Of a stretch of DNA of 64,000 nt, positions 562 to 44,467 are shown in pieces. The notes below the pieces were generated by a model. The model was not told the origin of the DNA. It was given only the letters and a program-made list of their open reading frames with translations, and ran no database searches. The first letter of the stretch is position 1. Every line of letters begins with the position of its first letter. Source of the DNA: an uncultured Anaerolineales bacterium (lineage in GTDB: Bacteria; Chloroflexota; Anaerolineae; Epilineales; JAANWY01); contig CAZHMV010000002.1 of the NCBI GenBank assembly GCA_964532665.1, positions 84,679-148,678 on the forward strand. The letters are read 5' to 3'. The position numbers and the translations under genes are program-made.

Positions 562-1751
562 CGCTGAGAACTCGATCTGGGTGCTGACGAATGACGAATG
601 CGGCGTCCTTCGCCCGGCTGAGGGCTCACGGTCGATGGTCGATGGTCGGCGGTCGCATCCCTGATCCACCGCCGCAACCTCATCTGGAACCGCTCTACAT
701 CGAACTGCAACGCGTGCTGACGAATGACCTGGGGATCGTAGGCTGACGGATCAAAGCCGGCCACCGCCTCTGCCAATGCTTCCGACGTTTGCTCGTGGAA
801 GAATGTTCCCGTCATTCCATCGATGACGGTGTCCAGCGCCCCGCCGCCGGCAAACGCGATGACAGGCCGGCCCGAAGCCTGGGCTTCAACCGGCGCCAGC
901 CCGAAATCCTCCAGACCCGGCCAGATGAGGGCCTGGCAGTGGGCCAGATGGTCCTGCACTACCTCGGCCGGCTGCCGTCCCAGGAATCGGACGTTTGGGC
1001 CGGCCATCGCCTCCAGATTGGGCCGATCCCGCCCGTCGCCGATGACCACCAGTGGCCGGCCCAGCTCGGTAAACGCTTTCACGGCCAGGTCGATCCGCTT
1101 GTACGGGATGAGCCGTGAGAGGATCAGGTAGTAGTTCCCCGTCCCGTTCGCAGAGGGCCGGAACCGTCGCGTGTCAACCGGTGGATAAATCACCGTTGAT
1201 TCCCGCTGATAGAAACGCTGGATGCGGTGTTGAATCTCTGTTGAGATGGCGGCGAAAGCGCCCACGCGCGTGCGCGCTGCCCGGCGATCCCAGCGCCGGA
1301 GCCATGGCAGGATTAACCGCAGGCCCGTTCGCCCGAGACGCCCCGCTTGTTCTCGTGCCAGGTACTCTGTGGTCTGCCACAGGTATCGCGTGGGCGTGAG
1401 GCAGTAGCACAGATGCGGGATGTTGGCCGGCGTGATGACGCCGTGGCAGAAACCGCTCTTGTTGCTCAGAACCAGGTCGTAGTCAGAGAAGTCGAAGCGT
1501 TCAAAAGCCAGGGGATACAGCGGGAGGTAGTACTGGTGACGCCGGTGGATGGCCGGCAGCCGATCCATGAAGGAGACGCGGATGTCCCAACCGTCCATGT
1601 CAGGCACGGCGGCCGGCCAGTACATGGACGTATAGACCGGCGCCTGCGGAAACATAGATTTGAGGGCGTGCAGCACGATTTCGGCACCGCCGGCCTGGTT
1701 CAGCCAGTCGTGCACAATGGCAATCCGCAAGCCGCGAAGAGAACTTTCCAT
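552..1751 (-). CDS. Glycosyltransferase family 4 (GT-B fold)
   Basis: IAIVHDWLNQAGGAE N-terminus and EDFGLAPVEAQASGRPV (ExFGxxxxEA) motif. Start moved to ATG 1751, just below a promoter-like element. The low-complexity C-terminal tail is repeat-derived. Confidence 0.9.
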   Translation of the reverse strand: MESSLRGLRIAIVHDWLNQAGGAEIVLHALKSMFPQAPVYTSMYWPAAVPDMDGWDIRVSFMDRLPAIHRRHQYYLPLYPLAFERFDFSDYDLVLSNKSGFCHGVITPANIPHLCYCLTPTRYLWQTTEYLAREQAGRLGRTGLRLILPWLRRWDRRAARTRVGAFAAISTEIQHRIQRFYQRESTVIYPPVDTRRFRPSANGTGNYYLILSRLIPYKRIDLAVKAFTELGRPLVVIGDGRDRPNLEAMAGPNVRFLGRQPAEVVQDHLAHCQALIWPGLEDFGLAPVEAQASGRPVIAFAGGGALDTVIDGMTGTFFHEQTSEALAEAVAGFDPSAYDPQVIRQHALQFDVERFQMRLRRWIRDATADHRPSTVSPQPGEGRRIRHSSAPRSSSQRWN

Positions 1752-12522: not shown

Positions 12523-12676
12523 AGGGGTAAGCCAACACACGCTTGTACTCAGGTCCAGCCACGCGCGTCGCCGCGAAGGTCGGTGAGCCGGGGTGTGGCG
12601 TGTGCCAGGGGGCAGGCCAATCCCTCGATCTACACTGTCGGCACGGACCAGGGGGTTTCAGGGGGTAGAGGCACCG
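12523..12676 (+). ncRNA. Structured 5' leader, candidate riboswitch
   Basis: Nested stems GGUCC/GGACC, GCCACGC/GUGUGGC and GUGCC/GGCAC, plus a competing CACACGC/GCGUGUG pairing. No match to known riboswitch consensus by eye. Confidence 0.4.
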
Positions 12677-14398
12677 TTGGGTAGGAGCGCCGGTCTTCCG
12701 CTGGTCGTTCGCGACCTGTCTTTCCGCTATCGCAACCGGTCGGAGCACGCTTTGCGAAACGTCTCGTTCCAGGCTGGGGCGGGGGAGGTTGTCCTGATCG
12801 CCGGCGCCAGCGGGTCTGGCAAGACGACTTTGATGCGCTGCATCAATGGCCTGATTCCTCGCAGCTACAAAGGGGGCGAGCTATCGGGGGAAATCCGCCT
12901 GTTCGGTCAGGACCCCACGCCTCTCAGCCTCCCCCAAATCTCCCAGATGGTAGGCACCGTTCTTCAGAACCCCGAGAAGCAGATCGTGAGCAGCTATGTG
13001 GCCAATGAAATCGCCTTCGGCCTGGAGAACCTGGGTGTGCCCCGCCCGGAGATGCGCAGCCGTGTAGACGCCATCCTGGACTACCTGGGGTTAGCTCACC
13101 TGCGCGATCGCGAGACCTTCCAACTGTCGGGGGGCGAGAAGCAGAAAGTGGTCATCGCCGGCGTGCTGGCTATGGAGCCGTCCATTCTGCTGCTGGATGA
13201 GCCTTTGGCCAACCTGGACCCCGTGAGCGTGCAGGAGACCCTCGCCCTCATCCGACGACTGGCCGACGCGGGACGGTCGGTGCTGATCATCGAACATCGG
13301 GTCGAAGATGTGCTGAAGATTCGGCCCGACAGGGTCCTGTTTCTGGCGGATGGGGAGCAACGCTACTTCGGTGAAGTGGAAGGCTTTGAAGCCGTCGCTG
13401 ACTACCGGGACGTCAAGCTGCCCGCGCCCCTGGTGGTACAGCGATTGATGCACGGGGCACCCCGGGTGATGGTTAATGGCCAGGCCCCGACTGTTCGCCA
13501 GTCGCAATCCGTCCCTCGCAACTCACCGCTGGTTGTGTTCCAGGACGTCACTTTCTGGTACGAGCCCGAAAAGCCAGTGTTGCACGATGTCAGTTTCACC
13601 ATCCAGCCGGGTGACGTGATCGCGATACTGGGACCCAATGGTGCCGGCAAGACCACCCTGGTGAAGCACGCCATCGGGCTGCTCAAGCCGCGACGGGGAC
13701 AGGTGTTGGTGGGTGAGCGGGATACCCAAACAGTGAGCGTGGCCCAGGTGGCTCGCACGTTGGGTTACGTCTTCCAGAGCCCCAGCCACATGCTCTTTGC
13801 GCCAACGGTGCGTGAGGAACTGGCCTTTGGCCCGCGCAACCTGGGGTACGACGAGGCTACAATAGCCGCCAATGTCCAGTCGGCCCTGGAGACGGTCAAC
13901 CTGGCGGAGCGGGCCGACGATCCGCCTCTGGCCCTCAGCTTCGGGCAGCAGAAACGGGTAACCATTGCCGCCGTACTGGCCATGCGGTCCAGGATTCTGG
14001 TCATGGACGAGCCCACAGCCGGCCAGGACTACCGGAACTACACCGCGTTCATGGATGCCATCCTCAACCCAGACAGACAAAGCGCGTGGGGTGCTGCTTT
14101 CGACGCCGTGATCTTTATCACCCATGACCTGGACCTGGCCATCAGCCACGCCAATCGGGTGGTCTTGCTTAACGAAGGCTACATCGTCGCCGACGGGCCG
14201 CCGCACGCGGTTCTGGCCGACCGCGAACTCCTGGACCGCTGCCGCCTGGTGCCCACCTCGTTGTTGGAACTGAACCTGGCGTTGCTACCTCAAACTGGCC
14301 GCTTCATGCGGCCTGAACTGCTGGCCCGATATGTCCAAAACACCGACCCCGGCTGGGCTTCATCAGCCGGAGTCGGCGAAAAGGGCGGGCCGGCGTGA
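12677..14398 (+). CDS. ECF transporter fused dual ATPase (A-A')
   Basis: Two Walker A motifs (GASGSGKT, GPNGAGKT), LSGGEKQKV and LSFGQQKRV signatures, two DEP motifs. Start inferred at TTG 12677 behind gagg. Confidence 0.9.
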   Translation: MGRSAGLPLVVRDLSFRYRNRSEHALRNVSFQAGAGEVVLIAGASGSGKTTLMRCINGLIPRSYKGGELSGEIRLFGQDPTPLSLPQISQMVGTVLQNPEKQIVSSYVANEIAFGLENLGVPRPEMRSRVDAILDYLGLAHLRDRETFQLSGGEKQKVVIAGVLAMEPSILLLDEPLANLDPVSVQETLALIRRLADAGRSVLIIEHRVEDVLKIRPDRVLFLADGEQRYFGEVEGFEAVADYRDVKLPAPLVVQRLMHGAPRVMVNGQAPTVRQSQSVPRNSPLVVFQDVTFWYEPEKPVLHDVSFTIQPGDVIAILGPNGAGKTTLVKHAIGLLKPRRGQVLVGERDTQTVSVAQVARTLGYVFQSPSHMLFAPTVREELAFGPRNLGYDEATIAANVQSALETVNLAERADDPPLALSFGQQKRVTIAAVLAMRSRILVMDEPTAGQDYRNYTAFMDAILNPDRQSAWGAAFDAVIFITHDLDLAISHANRVVLLNEGYIVADGPPHAVLADRELLDRCRLVPTSLLELNLALLPQTGRFMRPELLARYVQNTDPGWASSAGVGEKGGPA

Positions 14399-14449
14399 TG
14401 ATGATCTGTTCATCCGTGATCGTCCGTTCATGACAAAGGAGGGGTCATT

Positions 14450-15562
14450 ATGTTCGCTTCGGAGAATCGCTATCTGCGGCCGCTTCCGCCCCTGGTCATC
14501 GGGCTGGTTGTCAGCATTGTCTTGCTGTACATCGGCAACGTAATCGCCAGTGTGCGGAGTTCGGATGCCTTCGGCCTGGCTGCCCAGGCTACCTTCGGTG
14601 CCGGCGGCTGGGCTACCTGGCTGATCATTGCTGCCATCGTTGTGTACGTCATTTACATCTACTTTGCCGACCGGCCTATCTGGTCCGTGGGCACCCGCGA
14701 AGTGGTGTACATGGCCCTGGGCGCGGCTTTGTACGGCCTGTTGTCGTGGGCCTTCAACGCTATCCCGGTCCCTTCGGTGAGCCTGGTGTCACTGCGTCCG
14801 ACGGTGGTCATCCCCATCTTCTTCGGCTATGCCTTTGGCCCGGTGGTGGGCTTTTTCACCGGCTTCGTTGGCAACATTCTGGGCGACGCTCTCACCGGCT
14901 GGGGGGTGTTCCCGGCATGGGACGTGGGCAATGGCCTGATGGGGTTGATCCCCGGTCTGGTCCTGGCCTTCACGCATCGGGATCGGGCGGTGAGAGTCTT
15001 GATCTGGGTGACAGCCGTTGCTCTGCTCATAGCGACTGCACTCCCCATCATCAATCCGAATATCTCTGATCCCTTCAGCGGGGAGCCGGCCAACTTCGGC
15101 AACTGGTGGTGGGTGCCCCTGGTGGGCCTGGTTCTGCTGCTGGTCACGGCTTTCGCCACTCGCTTCTGGCCGGTGCTGGTGGGGCTGTTGGCATTGGGCT
15201 TCCTGGTGCGAGCCGTGCAGAGCCTGGCGAGCCAGGGGCTCAGTGGCGGTGTTATCCTGCTCTTGCTGATGACCGTCGTTATCATCCTGCTCGGTTGGTA
15301 CCTTTTCCGTCGCCGGGAGGCGATTGCCGAGGCCCTGTCCGACACAGACACGAAGGCCATCGTCGTGTGGGGTACACTGGGCATCATCATCGGCATCGGC
15401 TTCGCCGCTCTGGCGGACATCTGGATCAATGGCTATACGTTCTTCACCGCCTTCGTCGGGGAGTTTGTTCCGGCTGCCGGCCCTAACACGCTCTTCGCCA
15501 TTGTGCTGACGCCACTGCTGTATGGTGCCTGGCGGCAGGCGCAGGCGCAGACAGGACGCTAG
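14450..15562 (+). CDS. ECF transporter substrate-binding S component (UPF0397/MtsT-like core, enlarged)
   Basis: VVYMALGAALY...FGPVVGFFTGFVGNILGD core. About twice the usual length, with extra TM segments. Confidence 0.8.
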   Translation: MFASENRYLRPLPPLVIGLVVSIVLLYIGNVIASVRSSDAFGLAAQATFGAGGWATWLIIAAIVVYVIYIYFADRPIWSVGTREVVYMALGAALYGLLSWAFNAIPVPSVSLVSLRPTVVIPIFFGYAFGPVVGFFTGFVGNILGDALTGWGVFPAWDVGNGLMGLIPGLVLAFTHRDRAVRVLIWVTAVALLIATALPIINPNISDPFSGEPANFGNWWWVPLVGLVLLLVTAFATRFWPVLVGLLALGFLVRAVQSLASQGLSGGVILLLLMTVVIILLGWYLFRRREAIAEALSDTDTKAIVVWGTLGIIIGIGFAALADIWINGYTFFTAFVGEFVPAAGPNTLFAIVLTPLLYGAWRQAQAQTGR

Positions 15563-15566
15563 TTTT

Positions 15567-15620
15567 GAGCAGGGGGGCAGGGGAGCGGAGGTGCAGAGGG
15601 GCATCCTCCGCTGCTCCCCG
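15567..15620. repeat. G-rich tandem/inverted hairpin (GG(A/G)GC(A/G)G(G/A) units)
   Basis: ggggagcggagg (15580-15591) can pair with cctccgctgctcccc (15605-15619). Confidence 0.5.
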
Positions 15621-15664
15621 GGCTGCCGGCAAAGTGAGCAGTGGCCTTCGATGATCAACGGCCG

Positions 15665-15786
15665 GTTACTGCTCAGCCACCCTCCCGCAGGTTGCGGTGC
15701 GCAGTGGTTTTGCATCCGAAAAACGGCCTTGAAGCAGCGGTTCTCGGCCAGAGAGGCTTCAAACCTGCGGGAGGGTGAGTAGCTAC
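15665..15786. mobile_element. MITE-like element: perfect 15-bp internal IR and ACTACTCAG-type ends
   Basis: accctcccgcaggtt (15679-15693) and aacctgcgggagggt (15762-15776). Outer ends are gttactgctca and tgagtagctac. Confidence 0.6.
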
Positions 15787-15886
15787 GAGGTAAGCGTTCA
15801 GGGATAACTCAAGGAGCATCCCGAGTAGGCCGAGACGAAGTCGAGGCCGTATCGAGGGGTGCGGCTTACGCTACGAGTTGTAAACG

Positions 15887-16750
15887 ATGCTGGTTACCTG
15901 GAAGTATCGCGAACGAGACACGATCATCCAGCGCCTGGACCCCCGGGCGCGGATTATCTTCATGCTGTGTGCTTTCTTCAGCATCATTCAGTTCTGGGAC
16001 CTGCGCTTCCTGTTGGGATTTCTGGTTCTGGCTCTGGCCCAGATGGCGCTGGCACGGTTGGGATGGCGGGAAACGCGACGGTTCTGGCTGTTCATCACCG
16101 TGATCGCCTTTGCCCTGTCACTCATGACGGCACTGACCGGCCGGGGTGGAGTGGGGGTGTATGCTCAGGAGCATACCCTCTGGCGGGGTGAGTTCCATCT
16201 GCTGGGGGCGACCTTCGCTCTGGCCGTCAGCGCCGAACGCCTGACGTTCATGGTGGCGCAAATTGTGCGCATCTTTTCCTTCGCCGCGCTGGCCGTGGTC
16301 ATTCCCTACACCATTCACCCGGCTCGTTACGGGATCACCTTCCGCCGGCTGGGGGTGCCCGACAAGTTCGCCTTCGCCATGGACCTGGCCTTCCGCTTCA
16401 TCCCATCCCTGGGCCAGGATTTCCAGATGACCCTAGACGCCCAGCGGGCGCGGGGCTACGAGCTGGAGCGCATCGGCGGTGGGATCATCCGGCAGATTCG
16501 CAACATGGCTCCCCTGCTGATTCCGGTCACCATCGGCGCTATTGTGCGGGGTGAGGAGGTCATCGATGCCATGGACCTGCGCGCGTTCGGCACCGGACCG
16601 CGTACCTGGCTGGAGGAGTTGCACTACACCCCTCGGGACTACGCCCTGACCGTGTTCAGCGTCCTGTTGCTCCTGGGATCGACGGTACTCCACCTGTTAG
16701 GCTACGGTGGCTTCTGGGTGCCGGCGTGGCTGTTGGCCCTGGCCCGGTGA
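15887..16750 (+). CDS. ecfT: ECF transporter transmembrane T component
   Basis: LDPRARI start, LAFRFIP, AQRARG and AMDLRAF coupling motifs. Confidence 0.92.
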   Translation: MLVTWKYRERDTIIQRLDPRARIIFMLCAFFSIIQFWDLRFLLGFLVLALAQMALARLGWRETRRFWLFITVIAFALSLMTALTGRGGVGVYAQEHTLWRGEFHLLGATFALAVSAERLTFMVAQIVRIFSFAALAVVIPYTIHPARYGITFRRLGVPDKFAFAMDLAFRFIPSLGQDFQMTLDAQRARGYELERIGGGIIRQIRNMAPLLIPVTIGAIVRGEEVIDAMDLRAFGTGPRTWLEELHYTPRDYALTVFSVLLLLGSTVLHLLGYGGFWVPAWLLALAR

Positions 16751-16800
16751 CACTTCTGAGCAGTCGCCATGCCCCTGCGGGGCACCATGAAGCATGAAAA

Positions 16801-16853
16801 TAGCTAGATGGCTAGATGGCTCAAAGCCATCCAGCTATCCAGCTATCCAGCTA
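16801..16853. repeat. Tandem 8-mer inverted hairpin (TAGATGGC / GC(T/C)ATCCA)
   Basis: Left arm tagctagatggctagatggct, right arm agccatccagctatccagctatccagcta. A second copy lies at 61231-61310. Confidence 0.75.
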
Positions 16854-16879
16854 TTCTCAGACGAGATGGGATGATCCGT

Positions 16880-16908
16880 TTGACAAATCGGTGTTGGTTT
16901 GGTATACT
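16880..16908 (+). promoter_or_regulatory. Sigma70 promoter of the lys operon (TTGACA-17-TATACT)
   Basis: Consensus -35, 5/6 -10, 17-nt spacer. Confidence 0.8.
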
Positions 16909-16918
16909 ATCGCCCGCA

Positions 16919-16996
16919 ATGAATATGTCGGTTGTTTTGGGCGCTTTTGACGCCAAGCAGGGCAAGAAGGAGAAGCCGGACGACTCGTCTGGTTAG
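16919..16996 (+). CDS. Lysine-rich leader peptide MNMSVVLGAFDAKQGKKEKPDDSSG
   Basis: 25-aa ORF starting 10 nt below the -10 box, with four AAG codons in a 7-codon stretch, upstream of antiterminator/terminator pairings. Confidence 0.7.
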   Translation: MNMSVVLGAFDAKQGKKEKPDDSSG

Positions 16997-17072
16997 CTGT
17001 GCTTGCCTGAAAACGCCCACAACGCGTAGCCAACGCCGGCCACCAGACGAGGTGAGCCGGCGGTTTTTGTTT
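16976..17072 (+). terminator. Attenuator: antiterminator (16984-16993 with 17042-17051) competing with an intrinsic terminator (17032-17072)
   Basis: CTCGTCTGGT is the perfect complement of ACCAGACGAG. Terminator aacgccggc-cacc-agacga-ggtg-a-gccggcggtt followed by a U-rich tract. Confidence 0.75.
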
Positions 17073-17104
17073 CATGCCGAAAGTGCAAAAGGAGGTTCTC
17101 GGAA

Positions 17105-17275
17105 ATGGCAACTGCAACGTGTCCCGAATGCGCCGGTGAGGTTCTCTTCGGCTCTGACATCGTGGTCGGCGAGATTGCCCAGTGCCCCGACTGCGGTGTG
17201 GAGCTGGAGGTTCTGAGCGTCGATCCGCTCGAAGTCGATCTGGCACCGGAAGTCGAAGAGGATTGGGGAGAGTAG
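17105..17275 (+). CDS. lysW: Amino-group carrier protein LysW
   Basis: Missed by the ORF track (56 aa). MATATCPECAGEV...CPDCGVELEV...EVEEDWGE: two CPxC motifs and the invariant C-terminal EDWGE. SD aggagg. Confidence 0.97.
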   Translation: MATATCPECAGEVLFGSDIVVGEIAQCPDCGVELEVLSVDPLEVDLAPEVEEDWGE

Positions 17276-17276
17276 T

Positions 17277-17344
17277 ACGTGAAACGTAAAGCGTGAAGAT
17301 CGGTGCAGTCCCCGTTCCTCACGTTTCACGTTTTACGTTTCACG
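17277..17344. repeat. Tandem 7-mer inverted hairpin (ACGT(G/A)AA / TT(T/C)ACGT)
   Basis: Between lysW and lysX. A related copy lies at 43542-43624. Confidence 0.75.
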
Positions 17345-17385
17345 CCTTCTCAAACCTCATTCTGGTCTTGAAAAGGAGCGTGTCC

Positions 17386-18330
17386 ATGCGCATAGGTATT
17401 CTACATTCTAGAATCCGGCTCGAAGAGAAGCTGATCCTGCAGGAATTGGATCGGCGCGGTCTCAACTACGACATGATCGATGTGCGCCGGATCGTGTTCA
17501 ATCTCCACGAGAACGGGTGGGCCGATTATGACGTGATTCTGGAGCGCTGCGTCAGCCACTCGCGGGCCTTGTCGGCGCTGCGCATCCTGGATGCCTGGGG
17601 CGTGCCCACGGTCAACCCCTTCCAGGTGGGCGAGGTCTGTGGCGACAAGCTGAATACATCCCTGGCGCTGATCCAGGCCGGCGTGCCCACCCCCCGCGTC
17701 GAGATCGCCTTTACCCCCGAATCCGCTCTGGAAGCCATCGAGCGGTTGGGCTACCCCGTTGTCCTGAAGCCGGCGGTCGGCTCGTGGGGCCGGCTGTTGG
17801 CCCGCGTCAACGACCGCGACGCCGCCGAAGCCCTGCTGGAGCACAAGTCCACCCTGGGATCGTACCACCACTCCATCTACTACATCCAGGACTACGTTGA
17901 TAAGCCCGGCCGCGACATCCGCAGCTTTGTCGTCGGCGATGAGACGATCTGCGCCATCCTGCGGGAGTCGCAGCACTGGATCACCAACACCGCCCGAGGG
18001 GGTCGCGCCAGCAACTGTCCGGTGACACCCGAAATCGATGCACTTTCTCGGGCTGCTGCTCGGGCCGTGGGAGGCGGCATTGTGGCCGTGGACATCCTGG
18101 AGAGTCCCGACGGGGAGTTGCTGGTGAACGAAGTTAACTACACCATGGAATTCCGCAACAGCATCGAGCCGACGGGGGTGGACATTCCGGCGAAGATTGT
18201 GGATTATGTGGTGGCTGTGGGGGAGGGGCGACAGGAGTTCGGAGAGCGTCGGGAACTCGGGGGAACTCGGGGGAACTCGGGGGAACTGGCGGTGCCGGCG
18301 CAGGGTGTGGAGGAGAGCGGGCGTGGTTAG
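17386..18330 (+). CDS. lysX: LysW-alpha-aminoadipate ligase (ATP-grasp)
   Basis: [36 protein letters not shown]. Start ATG 17386 with SD aaggag. C-terminal tail [12 protein letters not shown] is repeat-encoded. Confidence 0.95.
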
Positions 18331-43657: not shown

Positions 43658-44467
43658 ATGGCTATCACCACACCGATCTACGTCCACGGCAATTCCTGGC
43701 TTCACCAACTGGACCCGCGAGTGAAGTTGCTGTTCGCTGTTGGTGGGATGGCGACGATGTTAGCGCTCGGGAATCTGCCTGTGTTTCTGGTGTTCCTGGT
43801 CGTGTGCCACGTCCTGCTGTTGTTGGCCGGCGTGCCGGTGAGTCGGCTGGCATGGGCCTGGCGGTTGATGCTGCCGATCACCATCCTGATCCCGGTTCTG
43901 TGGCCCATTTTCTCCACCGCCGGCAGTTCCGTGCTCCTCAGGCTGGGTCCGATCACGGTCACAACGCTGGATGTGTGGCAGGGTCTGGCTATGGCAGCCC
44001 GGGTCGATGCCATGGCTTTTGCCTTTTTCGTGTGGCTGTTTACCACCGACCAGGAGTCGATGGTTGCGGGACTGGTCGGCCTGGGGATACCCTACGAGTG
44101 GGGGCTGGTGGTGGCCATTTCGCTGCGCTACGTGCCAACGCTGTACGAGTCGTTCCAGCGAGTGCTGGACGCCCAGCGGGCGCGGGGGCTGGTGATTCCG
44201 CGGTCAAATCCGGCGAAAGCGGCGCGAGCTTACCTGCCGGCCCTGGTAGCCACACTCATCGGGGCACTGCGCACAGCCGAGCACCTGTCGTGGGCCATGC
44301 AGGCGCGGGCATTCGGGGCAACGGGCCGGCAGCGGACCATCCGGCGGGAGTTGCGCTTCAGGCCGGCAGATGGGGTCGCGACGGCAGTGGTGGTTCTTGG
44401 GTTTGGAGCGGTTATCGTTGCGCGTGTCCTCTTCGGTTTTGGCCGGCTGCCGTTATCGCTGTTGTAA
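43658..44467 (+). CDS. ecfT: ECF T component
   Basis: LHQLDPRVKL, ISLRYVP, AQRARG, AMQARAF. Confidence 0.9.
   Translation: MAITTPIYVHGNSWLHQLDPRVKLLFAVGGMATMLALGNLPVFLVFLVVCHVLLLLAGVPVSRLAWAWRLMLPITILIPVLWPIFSTAGSSVLLRLGPITVTTLDVWQGLAMAARVDAMAFAFFVWLFTTDQESMVAGLVGLGIPYEWGLVVAISLRYVPTLYESFQRVLDAQRARGLVIPRSNPAKAARAYLPALVATLIGALRTAEHLSWAMQARAFGATGRQRTIRRELRFRPADGVATAVVVLGFGAVIVARVLFGFGRLPLSLL

What the first reader, a model, noticed from the sequence alone, without database searches (positions are those of the whole stretch)
16880..17072. Unannotated ribosome-mediated lysine attenuator with a near-leaderless leader peptide
Seen: promoter, then a 25-codon ORF with Lys codons at 16955, 16964, 16967 and 16973. 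Its 3' end (CTCGTCTGGT, 16984-93) is the perfect complement of the loop/inner stem (17042-51) of an intrinsic terminator before lysW. A ribosome reaching the stop (16994-96) would cover the antiterminator strand and allow termination; stalling at Lys codons would free it. Established: leader-peptide attenuation of the LysW lysine cluster is known in Thermus thermophilus. Inference: an equivalent, structurally distinct attenuator in this lineage.
Basis: partly seen in the sequence, partly recalled or inferred. Interest (0 to 1): 0.65.

Follow-up and report, generated by a model that had tools for sequence, protein, structure and literature searches.

The report
Lysine leader-peptide attenuator before lysW
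A 25-codon lysine-rich mini-gene and switchable RNA hairpins in front of the lysine-synthesis operon of an uncultured Anaerolineae bacterium most likely let transcription continue only when lysine is scarce. This is a textbook mechanism, but this version is conserved across Chloroflexota and matches no Rfam family.

Summary
There is a strong promoter (16880-16908), a 25-codon ORF (16919-16996) with four AAG Lys codons, an intrinsic terminator (17034-17072), and a perfect 10-nt complement (16984-93 with 17042-51). All of this lies just before lysWXYZJK-hcs.

One is a hairpin formed by the last Lys codon region with the antiterminator strand (16974-82/16986-94). The other is a long outer helix that pairs the Lys-codon region with the sequence just after the stop codon.

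Comparative data support a ribosome-mediated Lys attenuator:
- The ORF is kept in frame in relatives. The core ...K-K-P-D-x-x-S-G-stop recurs in at least 14 families of two Chloroflexota classes, using TAG, TGA or TAA at the same site.
- Lys makes up 22% of the preceding codons, against 2.1% genome-wide.
- The antiterminator pairing covaries at its flanks.
- The element precedes lysW, lysZ, hcs or homoaconitase genes.

With a ribosome modelled on the Lys codons, the predicted fold sequesters the whole 5' arm of the terminator.

No expression data exist for this organism. The mechanism is classical and, from my memory, already reported for lysine in Thermus. I rate it a new member of a known kind, of moderate interest.

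The parts
16880..16908 (+). Sigma-70-type promoter: -35 TTGACA (16880-85), 17-nt spacer with TG, -10 TATACT (16903-08). The predicted TSS is about 16915-16916.
   Evidence: It matches 11 of 12 consensus positions. The -35, the -10 and their spacing are conserved in G005, G001, G003, G004 and L033, while sequence further upstream diverges.
16919..16996 (+). Leader ORF of 25 codons, MNMSVVLGAFDAKQGKKEKPDDSSG, ending at TAG. It has no SD, and its ATG lies 10 nt after the -10 hexamer (near-leaderless).
   Evidence: It is in frame in all family relatives, with synonymous changes and one 3-nt insertion. The C-terminal core [K/R]KPDxxSG-stop recurs across Chloroflexota with TAG, TGA or TAA.
16955..16975 (+). 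Regulatory Lys codons: AAG at 16955-57, 16964-66, 16967-69 and 16973-75.
   Evidence: K13, K16 and K19 are invariant in the family. Lys makes up 22% of the 11 codons before the last AAG in 20 leaders, against 2.1% in long ORFs of this genome. The binomial p is 0.0016 for the window and 3e-35 for the pooled set.
16924..16963 (+). P0 5' strand: the leader ORF region, including Lys codons, that pairs with 16996-17028 when no ribosome is present.
   Evidence: MFE folds. An equivalent outer helix with different sequences is predicted in most other families.
16974..16982 (+). Segment 1: 5' arm of hairpin 1:2 (AGCCGGACG). It overlaps the last Lys codon and the Pro-Asp codons.
   Evidence: A 9-bp hairpin of -12.0 kcal/mol. 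Pairing is kept by one-sided changes in G003a (G-U to A-U) and G003b (C-G to U-G).
16984..16994 (+). Segment 2: 3' arm of hairpin 1:2 (CGUCUGGUU, 16986-94) and antiterminator strand (CUCGUCUGGU, 16984-93). The stop codon starts at its last base.
   Evidence: GTCTGGTTAGC is invariant in the family.
16996..17028 (+). P0 3' strand. In the antiterminated fold, its 5' part (GCUG.GC.UUG, 16996-17005) instead pairs with 17031-17040, which includes the base of the terminator's 5' arm.
   Evidence: Constrained folds. GCYGTGCTTG is conserved in type A and type B leaders.
17034..17062 (+). Intrinsic terminator hairpin: 5' arm 17034-44, loop AGACGA 17045-50, 3' arm 17051-54 and 17056-62. Segment 3 of the antiterminator is 17042-51.
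   Evidence: -23.0 kcal/mol. The stem and the loop are both invariant across genera of the family. Unusual conservation of a loop fits pairing with segment 2.
17064..17072 (+). U-tract of the terminator (TTTTTGTTT).
17090..17275 (+). SD AGGAGG (17090-95) and lysW (17105-17275), the first gene of lysW-X-Y-Z-J-K-hcs (to 23922).
   Evidence: Pfam hits: PF21344 for LysW, LysX pre-ATP-grasp/RimK, semialdehyde dehydrogenase, amino-acid kinase, aminotransferase III, M20, and HMGL plus HCS_D2.

Best explanation
This is a classical ribosome-mediated transcription attenuator that reports the supply of charged tRNA-Lys to the lysW-X-Y-Z-J-K-hcs operon.

Transcription starts about 3 nt before the leader ATG. 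Three states follow.

1. No ribosome on the leader, or after the ribosome is released. The Lys-codon region pairs with the sequence after the stop (helix P0) and segment 1 pairs with segment 2 (hairpin 16974-82/16986-94). Segment 2 is locked away, the terminator 17034-62 forms, and RNA polymerase stops at the U-tract near 17070.

2. Lysine plentiful. The ribosome runs to the TAG, which begins at the last base of segment 2. It therefore covers segments 1 and 2 and part of the P0 3' strand. The terminator again forms.

3. Lys-tRNA scarce. The ribosome stalls on the AAG codons at 16955-16975. Its footprint masks the P0 5' strand and segment 1 but leaves segment 2 and the P0 3' strand free. These pair with 17024-17051. 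Specifically, CUCGUCUGGU pairs with ACCAGACGAG, and GCUG.GC pairs with GC.CGGC. This sequesters the whole 5' arm of the terminator before its 3' arm is made, so polymerase reads through into lysW.

Shown: the sequence elements, their conservation and covariation, Lys-codon enrichment, and association with lysine genes. Inferred: translation of the ORF, the TSS, ribosome footprint geometry, and the lysine response itself.
For: Anatomy in the window.

Conservation in the same family (G005, G001, G003 twice, G004, metagenome contig L033):
- The promoter, an in-frame ORF, K13/K16/K19, GTCTGGTTAGC and the complete terminator including its loop are conserved. The flanks and the N-terminal codons diverge.
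- L033 has an in-frame 3-nt insertion.
- G003 carries the leader both before lysW and before a separate lysZ-lysJ operon.
- G004, G003b and L033 carry a second, diverged Lys leader plus terminator in tandem. Its terminator stem shows compensatory changes and again has CCAGAC at its top.

Class- and phylum-wide:
- The motif AAGCCRGAC-N-GTCTGG occurs in 91 of 401 Anaerolineae-class genomes.
- 17 of the 29 new loci inspected are short ORFs ending [K/R]KPDxxSG with a stop exactly 1 nt after GTCTGG. The stop is usually TAG, but TGA in G120 and TAA in G078.
- In 16 of these 17 a strong terminator was detected 40-80 nt downstream. In G049 the scan found none: the hairpin is there but the T-run is weak.
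- The downstream gene is lysW or homocitrate synthase.
- With the stop included in the pattern, there are 23 hits against 4 control hits in 401 Chloroflexota genomes. Of the 23, 22 lie in genomes outside Anaerolineae (15 in f75, 3 in f112, 4 singletons); the remaining hit is the window's own genome. The three that were read precede hcs, a homoaconitase-like gene and a LysE-family gene. The 4 singletons were not inspected, and 2 of them end in TGG, which is not a stop.

Lys enrichment: 22% against 2.1%.

Antiterminator pairing:
- It is 6-13 bp in all 26 members tested. A member's own pairing beats cross-family pairing in 10 of 12 families, Wilcoxon p=0.001.
- The flanking positions covary. R1 is paired in 26/30 (A-U, U-A, U-G). 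L1 is paired in 25/30 with 4 pair types. L2 is paired in 20/30 with 4 pair types. Cross-family pairing at these positions is 34-48%.

Folding with a ribosome block on any Lys codon gives the 16984-17051 antiterminator, at -29.4 kcal/mol against -23.0 for the terminator. The same behaviour is seen in 17 of 22 members.

No riboswitch, T-box or other Rfam family matches, even at E<=10.

A homologous Roseiflexus-like leader is transcribed in hot-spring mats. Contig 5' ends lie 7 nt after its -10 hexamer.
Against: - There is no experimental evidence for this organism. The only metatranscriptomes from its samples hold no reads on the region. Neither the TSS, the ~155-nt terminated RNA, nor any lysine response has been seen.
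- The metatranscriptome contigs of the Roseiflexus-like homologue run through the terminator and give no depth profile.
- In full-length folds with a 29-nt ribosome block, the terminator form is still the MFE. Antitermination must therefore be kinetic, as it is in trp.
- One relative (G004 type A) has only a 6-bp seg2:seg3 pairing.
- Several Lys codons lie in the P0 helix (CAAGC:GCUUG), so part of the AAG conservation could be structural.
- The relatives were collected with a pattern that imposes one AAG, CCRGAC and GTCTGG. Those features are not independent observations. About 40% of raw pattern hits are chance.
- Near-leaderless initiation with a ~3-nt 5' UTR is assumed, not shown.
Confidence: 0.8

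Rival explanations
1. An RNA-only switch: an undescribed riboswitch, or a target of an RNA-binding protein or tRNA. It would choose between the same antiterminator and terminator, and the short ORF would be incidental or only modulatory.
For: - Nucleotide conservation is strongest in the untranslated part (GTCTGGTTAGCYGTGCTTG... and the terminator loop).
- The same GTCTGGTYAG is read in different frames in type A and type B leaders.
- The structure is compact and significantly stable.
Against: - The start codon, the reading frame and a stop codon of any of the three kinds are kept at one position across families.
- An insertion in the ORF is in frame.
- Lys codons are enriched tenfold.
- There is no aptamer-like conserved junction, and no Rfam match to Lysine, T-box or any other cis-regulator.
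- The conserved untranslated bases are explained by the alternative pairings.
Confidence: 0.08
2. A constitutive partial terminator or insulator, or an RNA-stability element, after a strong promoter, together with an unrelated or non-functional small ORF. There would be no lysine sensing.
For: The region is full of hairpin-forming repeat elements at gene junctions. No expression data show regulation.
Against: - The element is specifically linked to lysine-pathway genes in at least 14 families. It was duplicated when the operon was split in G003.
- The mutually exclusive pairing covaries.
- The Lys codons sit exactly where a stalled ribosome would unmask segment 2.
Confidence: 0.05
3. An arrest-peptide sensor like TnaC or SpeFL. 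The conserved C-terminus KPDxxSG-stop would stall the ribosome at or near the stop codon in response to free lysine, and the stalled ribosome would set the RNA fold.
For: The peptide C-terminus and the stop position are conserved across the phylum. The Pro-Asp pair lies just before the stop region.
Against: - The conserved residues are fully explained by the RNA hairpin they encode (CCRGAC/GUCUGG). The loop-encoded residues vary freely.
- A subclass with a 6-nt loop reads the same bases in another frame and ends elsewhere.
- Stalling at the stop would cover segment 2, as normal termination does. It would not by itself create a lysine-dependent difference.
Confidence: 0.04

Closest known systems
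Leader-peptide attenuator of the Thermus thermophilus lysine (alpha-aminoadipate) gene cluster. The source is Tsubouchi et al., J Biol Chem 2005, cited from my own memory. The paper is not in the searchable library.
   Same: A short upstream ORF with lysine codons and a terminator control genes of the LysW/alpha-aminoadipate lysine pathway. The predicted logic is the same: Lys-tRNA shortage leads to read-through.
   Different: - This element is in Chloroflexota (Anaerolineae), directly before lysW. In Thermus, as I recall, it lies before hcs.
- The start here is near-leaderless.
- Helix P0 is long, and the antiterminator is bipartite.
- Whether the two leaders are homologous in sequence could not be tested, because the Thermus genome was only a named control and was not retrievable.
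Enterobacterial trp, his, leu, thr and pheA operon attenuators (Rfam leader families).
   Same: Four-segment design with 1:2, 2:3 and 3:4 pairings. Regulatory codons sit at the start of segment 1, the stop codon sits next to segment 2, and an intrinsic terminator lies before the first structural gene.
   Different: - The regulatory amino acid is lysine.
- An extra outer helix encloses the Lys codons.
- The stop codon lies immediately after segment 2, not between segments 1 and 2.
- There is no SD in this lineage.
- No Rfam leader family matches.
Lysine riboswitch (L-box, RF00168).
   Same: A cis-acting RNA that shuts off lysine biosynthesis or transport genes, often through a terminator.
   Different: It senses free lysine through a roughly 180-nt five-helix aptamer without translation. 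No match here, even at E<=10, and the leader is too short and carries a conserved ORF.
T-box leaders.
   Same: They sense uncharged tRNA and choose between an antiterminator and a terminator upstream of amino-acid genes. They are reported in Chloroflexota.
   Different: They use direct tRNA binding through a specifier loop and T-box sequence, with no ORF. No Rfam match.

Membership tests
Ribosome-mediated (leader-peptide) transcription attenuator | A short translatable ORF lies between the promoter and the first structural gene of an amino-acid biosynthesis operon. | tested here: met
   The 25-codon ORF 16919-16996 lies before lysW. The frame, start and stop are conserved in relatives, all three stop codons are used at the same site, and one indel is in frame. 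Translation itself was not observed.
Ribosome-mediated (leader-peptide) transcription attenuator | The ORF is enriched in codons for the pathway's end-product amino acid. | tested here: met
   4 Lys in 25 codons against 2.1% genome-wide, p=0.0016. In 20 leaders, Lys makes up 22% of the 11 codons before the last AAG.
Ribosome-mediated (leader-peptide) transcription attenuator | A Rho-independent terminator lies between the leader ORF and the structural gene. | tested here: met
   Hairpin 17034-62 (-23.0 kcal/mol) plus U-tract 17064-72. A terminator was detected in 19 of 20 members from other families.
Ribosome-mediated (leader-peptide) transcription attenuator | An alternative antiterminator pairing, mutually exclusive with the terminator, is supported by covariation. 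| tested here: met
   16984-93 pairs with 17042-51. The fold extends over 16984-17051 at -29.4 kcal/mol. Flank covariation at R1, L1 and L2, and own pairing beats cross-family pairing in 10 of 12 families, p=0.001.
Ribosome-mediated (leader-peptide) transcription attenuator | The geometry is right: a ribosome stalled at the regulatory codons masks segment 1 but not segment 2, and a ribosome at the stop masks segment 2. | tested here: met
   The Lys codons end at 16975. Segment 1 is 16974-82 and segment 2 is 16984-94. The stop begins at 16994. Folds with a 29-nt block give the antiterminator for stalls at K13-K19 and the terminator for a ribosome at the stop. The footprint size is assumed.
Ribosome-mediated (leader-peptide) transcription attenuator | Termination and read-through depend on the amino acid in vivo or in vitro. 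| not testable with these tools
   There are no RNA reads for this organism. Contigs for the homologue in mats lack depth resolution.
Thermus thermophilus lysine-cluster leader attenuator | It controls genes of the alpha-aminoadipate/LysW lysine pathway through Lys codons in a leader peptide. | tested here: met
   The operon is lysWXYZJK-hcs, and the leader carries Lys codons.
Thermus thermophilus lysine-cluster leader attenuator | Sequence or structure homology to the Thermus leader. | not tested
   The Thermus genome was not retrievable and the paper is not in the library. Earlier scan notes claim a related K-[K/R]-P core in other phyla, but these are unchecked.
Lysine riboswitch (RF00168) | A match to the L-box covariance model. 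| tested here: not met
   cmscan of 16600-17500 at E<=10 gave only spurious miRNA-type hits on neighbouring repeat hairpins and a 13-bit Guanidine-III hit on the terminator.
T-box leader (RF00230) | A match to the T-box covariance model. | tested here: not met
   No hit at E<=10.

The most novel reading that the evidence does not exclude
The window holds one member of an old attenuator family that matches no Rfam model and that I could not find described. The family is built on a fixed core: Lys-Lys-Pro-Asp codons form the 5' arm of a hairpin whose 3' arm, GUCUGG, is followed at once by the stop codon.

This family travels with LysW-pathway genes (lysW, lysZ, hcs, homoaconitase) through at least two Chloroflexota classes. 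It may extend to other phyla, including Thermus. The strand that shields the Lys codons in the off state is re-used in the on state to sequester the base of the terminator, giving a bipartite antiterminator.

Some lineages, with Arg-rich leaders such as RRKKPD, may read arginine as well.
Probability: 0.4. Interest if true: 0.55.

Novelty: new member of a known kind. Interest (0 to 1): 0.4.

Why it matters
- It gives the regulatory logic of lysine biosynthesis through the LysW/alpha-aminoadipate route in Chloroflexota, a large and mostly uncultured phylum.
- It shows that classical leader-peptide attenuation is used well beyond Proteobacteria, Actinobacteria and Thermus.
- The conserved core (KKPD hairpin, stop, CCAGAC-topped terminator) is specific enough to seed a curated RNA or leader family. 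Such a family would annotate promoters, operon starts and lysine regulons in metagenome-assembled genomes, including genes not obviously linked to lysine, such as a LysE-family membrane protein.
- Homologous leaders occur in complete ~5 Mb genomes of a second Chloroflexota class that I take, without names, to be Chloroflexus/Roseiflexus-like. If those are cultured strains, the prediction can be tested directly.
- The near-leaderless variant is a simple natural case for studying how leaderless initiation is coupled to transcription.

Tried and rejected
- Rfam at permissive thresholds gave nothing relevant.
- The simple terminator scan missed the terminator because of its bulge and 6-nt loop. 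The fold shows it.
- My first alignment used the wrong strands for three loci and was discarded.
- The short DNA hits in G012, G028 and G002 are Lys-rich coding regions, not leaders.
- Covariance model R1, built from type A only, found only the same family plus the tandem type B copy. It was too narrow for the order.
- Exact-pattern scans of genome and metagenome collections returned only the family itself.
- RNA evidence was not obtained:
  - Runs from the window's own samples hold nothing.
  - DNA runs only reproduced known variants.
  - Metatranscriptome contigs for a Roseiflexus-like homologue show transcription and a 5' end, but no termination profile.
  - Runs for a Chloroflexus-like homologue are too shallow.
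- Ten literature searches found no description of this element, and did not find the Thermus paper either.
- The Thermus genome could not be fetched for comparison.
- The two other lysW-like genes of this genome (contig C27) have no such leader.
- The constrained-fold test failed for G044, G120, G078 and G040. The causes were technical: the terminator was mis-delimited, or the P0 strand upstream of the modelled footprint re-paired.

Full report
**Observation.**
- Promoter: TTGACA (16880-85), a 17-nt spacer with TG, and TATACT (16903-08). This matches 11 of 12 consensus positions, and such sites are rare in the surrounding 2 kb.
- ORF: an ATG at 16919 opens a 25-codon ORF, MNMSVVLGAFDAKQGKKEKPDDSSG, closed by TAG at 16994-96. 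AAG codons lie at 16955, 16964, 16967 and 16973.
- Terminator: CGCCGGCCACC-AGACGA-GGUG-A-GCCGGCG (17034-62, -23.0 kcal/mol), followed by TTTTTGTTT.
- Downstream: AGGAGG, then the lysW ATG at 17105.
- Complement: CTCGTCTGGT (16984-93) is the exact complement of ACCAGACGAG (17042-51).
- Operon: Pfam identifies the genes as lysW, lysX, lysY, lysZ, lysJ, lysK and homocitrate synthase.

Taken alone, the window's statistics are only suggestive. The 10-bp complement was reached by 3 of 200 shuffles. Four Lys in 25 codons has p=0.0016 at the genome's 2.1% Lys frequency. The leader folds with z=-3.15.

The unconstrained fold shows that the proposed antiterminator strand is not free by default.
- It forms a 9-bp hairpin with the sequence just upstream (16974-82 with 16986-94, -12 kcal/mol). 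That upstream arm overlaps the last Lys codon and the Pro-Asp codons.
- This hairpin sits at the tip of a long outer helix, P0. P0 pairs the Lys-codon part of the ORF (about 16924-63) with the region after the stop (16996-17028).

These are the 'segment 1:2' elements that a classical attenuator needs. They explain why a ribosome stalled on Lys codons would release segment 2.

**Organism and close relatives.**
The window belongs to an Anaerolineae (Chloroflexota) metagenome-assembled genome (MAG). Its relatives are named, and its reads occur in microbial-mat and hydrothermal-vent metagenomes.

In four other genomes of the same family and one metagenome contig, the following are conserved while the flanks and N-terminal codons diverge:
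- the promoter;
- the 10-nt distance from the -10 hexamer to the ATG;
- the reading frame;
- K13, K16 and K19;
- GTCTGGTTAGC;
- the whole terminator, including its loop.

Codon changes include synonymous third-position substitutions. Contig L033 has a 3-nt in-frame insertion.

The pairing is 7-8 bp in G001 and G005, and 6 bp in G004.

Two further observations link the element to lysine genes rather than to this locus:
- G003 carries one copy before lysW and another before a separate lysZ-lysJ operon.
- G004, G003b and L033 carry a second, diverged Lys leader with its own terminator in tandem. The terminator stems of these second copies differ by compensatory changes and again carry CCAGAC at the top.

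**Wider distribution.**
Two same-class genomes from other families (G038, G040) have the following before lysW:
- a promoter;
- an ORF containing KKPD;
- the hairpin CCAGAC...GUCUGG;
- an unrelated terminator whose 5' arm is complementary to segment 2;
- an outer helix of different sequence.

A pattern scan of 401 genomes of the class found 107 hits. Of the 29 new loci read, 17 are short ORFs ending [K/R]KPDxxSG with a stop exactly 1 nt after GTCTGG. The stop is usually TAG, but TGA in G120 and TAA in G078. In 16 of the 17 a strong terminator was detected 40-80 nt downstream; G049 has the hairpin but only a weak T-run, so the scan reported none. The next gene is lysW or homocitrate synthase. 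The remaining 12 are chance matches.

Loop lengths of the hits peak at 5 nt (45 hits) and 6 nt (29 hits), against 4-9 hits for other lengths. This suggests about 60 real elements and a second subclass in which the ORF ends further downstream.

Adding the stop to the pattern gave 23 hits against 4 control hits in 401 genomes of the phylum. Of the 23, 22 lie in genomes outside Anaerolineae (15 in f75, 3 in f112, 4 singletons); the remaining hit is the window's own genome. Many f75 and f112 genomes are complete and about 5 Mb. In the three loci that I read, the leader precedes a small ORF plus hcs, a homoaconitase-like gene, and a LysE-family membrane protein. The 4 singletons were not inspected, and 2 of them end in TGG, which is not a stop.

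**Tests of the model.**
1. Lys enrichment. In 20 leaders from 11 families, Lys makes up 22% of the 11 codons before the one AAG imposed by the search pattern. The figure is 2.1% in long ORFs of this genome. Lys is preferred at positions -1, -4 and -6/-7. Arg is not clearly enriched overall.

2. Antiterminator pairing. All 26 members tested have a 6-13 bp complement between segment 2 and the top of the terminator's 5' arm or loop. A member's own partner gives a longer helix than partners from other families in 10 of 12 families, Wilcoxon p=0.001. Per position, the base after GUCUGG pairs with the base before CCAGAC in 26 of 30 cases (A-U 13, U-A 7, U-G 6), against 38% in cross-family pairing. 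The two bases before GUCUGG pair in 25 and 20 of 30 cases, each with four pair types, against 48% and 34%. These are compensatory changes in a pairing that competes with the terminator.

3. Geometry. I blocked 29 nt around an A-site Lys codon and folded the RNA made before the terminator's 3' arm emerges. This gives a single structure for 16984-17051 (-29.4 kcal/mol). In it, CUCGUCUGGU pairs with ACCAGACGAG. The former P0 3' strand, GCUG.GC.UUG, pairs with CAA.GC.CGGC, which is the base of the terminator's 5' arm. With the block on the stop codon, the terminator forms. The same behaviour is seen in 17 of 22 members, and the four complete failures are technical. In the full-length constrained fold the terminator form is still the minimum. 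Antitermination must therefore be kinetic, as in trp.

**Expression data.**
None exist for this organism.

A Roseiflexus-like homologue is transcribed in hot-spring mat metatranscriptomes. Contig 5' ends abut adapter sequence 7 nt after its -10 hexamer, and contigs continue through the terminator into the gene. This supports the promoter prediction and shows that read-through occurs. It says nothing about regulated termination. Runs for a Chloroflexus-like homologue were too shallow.

**Comparison with known systems.**
The design is that of the enterobacterial amino-acid attenuators. The nearest functional precedent is the Lys leader of the Thermus thermophilus alpha-aminoadipate cluster. I cite that from memory (Tsubouchi et al. 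2005), because the library does not hold it. I could not retrieve the Thermus leader to test homology.

No lysine riboswitch, T-box or leader family of Rfam matches.

Earlier notes of this scan describe similar Lys leaders before lysW in at least 21 other genomes (Chloroflexota, Planctomycetes, CPR), including tandem pairs. These notes are unchecked AI readings. They agree with what I found independently but are not evidence.

**Verdict.**
The element is very probably a ribosome-mediated lysine attenuator (confidence 0.8). It belongs to a conserved Chloroflexota-wide family that matches no Rfam model. The mechanism is textbook, and a lysine example is, from my memory, already known. I therefore rate it a new member of a known kind, with interest 0.4.

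Noticed in passing
window 16797-16858 and 17277-17345: Long hairpins built from tandem short repeats and their reverse complements. TAGATGGC units lie just upstream of the promoter, and ACGTGAA-type heptamers lie between lysW and lysX. They gave spurious miRNA-type Rfam hits. Similar repeat elements, which translate as ...[11 protein letters not shown]..., sit at other junctions of the operon. An earlier scan note, e1-5038987, has already flagged them.
   Followed up: no
L018 243-372 (-), L029 2745-2885 (+), L033 557-680 (-): Relatives carry a second, diverged Lys leader (e.g. MFFNTKKQDKKRKPDSGLVSRACP) with its own terminator, in tandem between the first terminator and the gene. The window lacks it, and G003a keeps only a decayed remnant. 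In this type the strand GCUUGU can pair with ACAAGC at the base of the terminator.
   Followed up: partly
L019 1501-1618 / L029 2520-2940: In genome G003 the lysine cluster is split, and the leader is duplicated. One copy lies before lysW and another, itself followed by a tandem second leader, lies before lysZ-lysJ.
   Followed up: partly
L084 (G670) about 1450-1575 (-): A canonical leader (MQITDAIIAKQQKRAKKPDNVSG, TGA stop) plus terminator precedes a LysE/RhtB-family membrane protein rather than a biosynthetic gene. Induction of an exporter-type protein under lysine shortage would be odd, so its substrate or direction may differ.
   Followed up: no
L007 (G038) and L010 (G040) leaders: Some lineages have Arg-rich leaders (LKRRIRKKPD, RSPRRKKPD) with only 2-3 Lys. 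This may indicate combined Lys and Arg sensing where the LysW pathway also serves arginine. The idea also appears in earlier scan notes (e1-1454414, e1-1530419).
   Followed up: no
own genome contig C27:43745-43876 and 43978-44097: Two further lysW-like zinc-ribbon genes sit in tandem elsewhere in the genome, without any Lys leader upstream. They may be carrier proteins of another LysW-type pathway.
   Followed up: partly
L082 1434-1460 (G693): Hot-spring mat metatranscriptome contigs of a Roseiflexus-like strain begin 7 nt after the predicted -10 hexamer, directly next to adapter sequence. That strain has a 5' UTR about 10 nt shorter than the reference.
   Followed up: partly
window 12593-16750: Upstream of the leader lies an ECF-type transporter set: a fused double ATPase, a 370-aa S component (PF07155) and a CbiQ-type T component (PF02361). 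It ends at 16750 and is unrelated to the attenuator.
   Followed up: no
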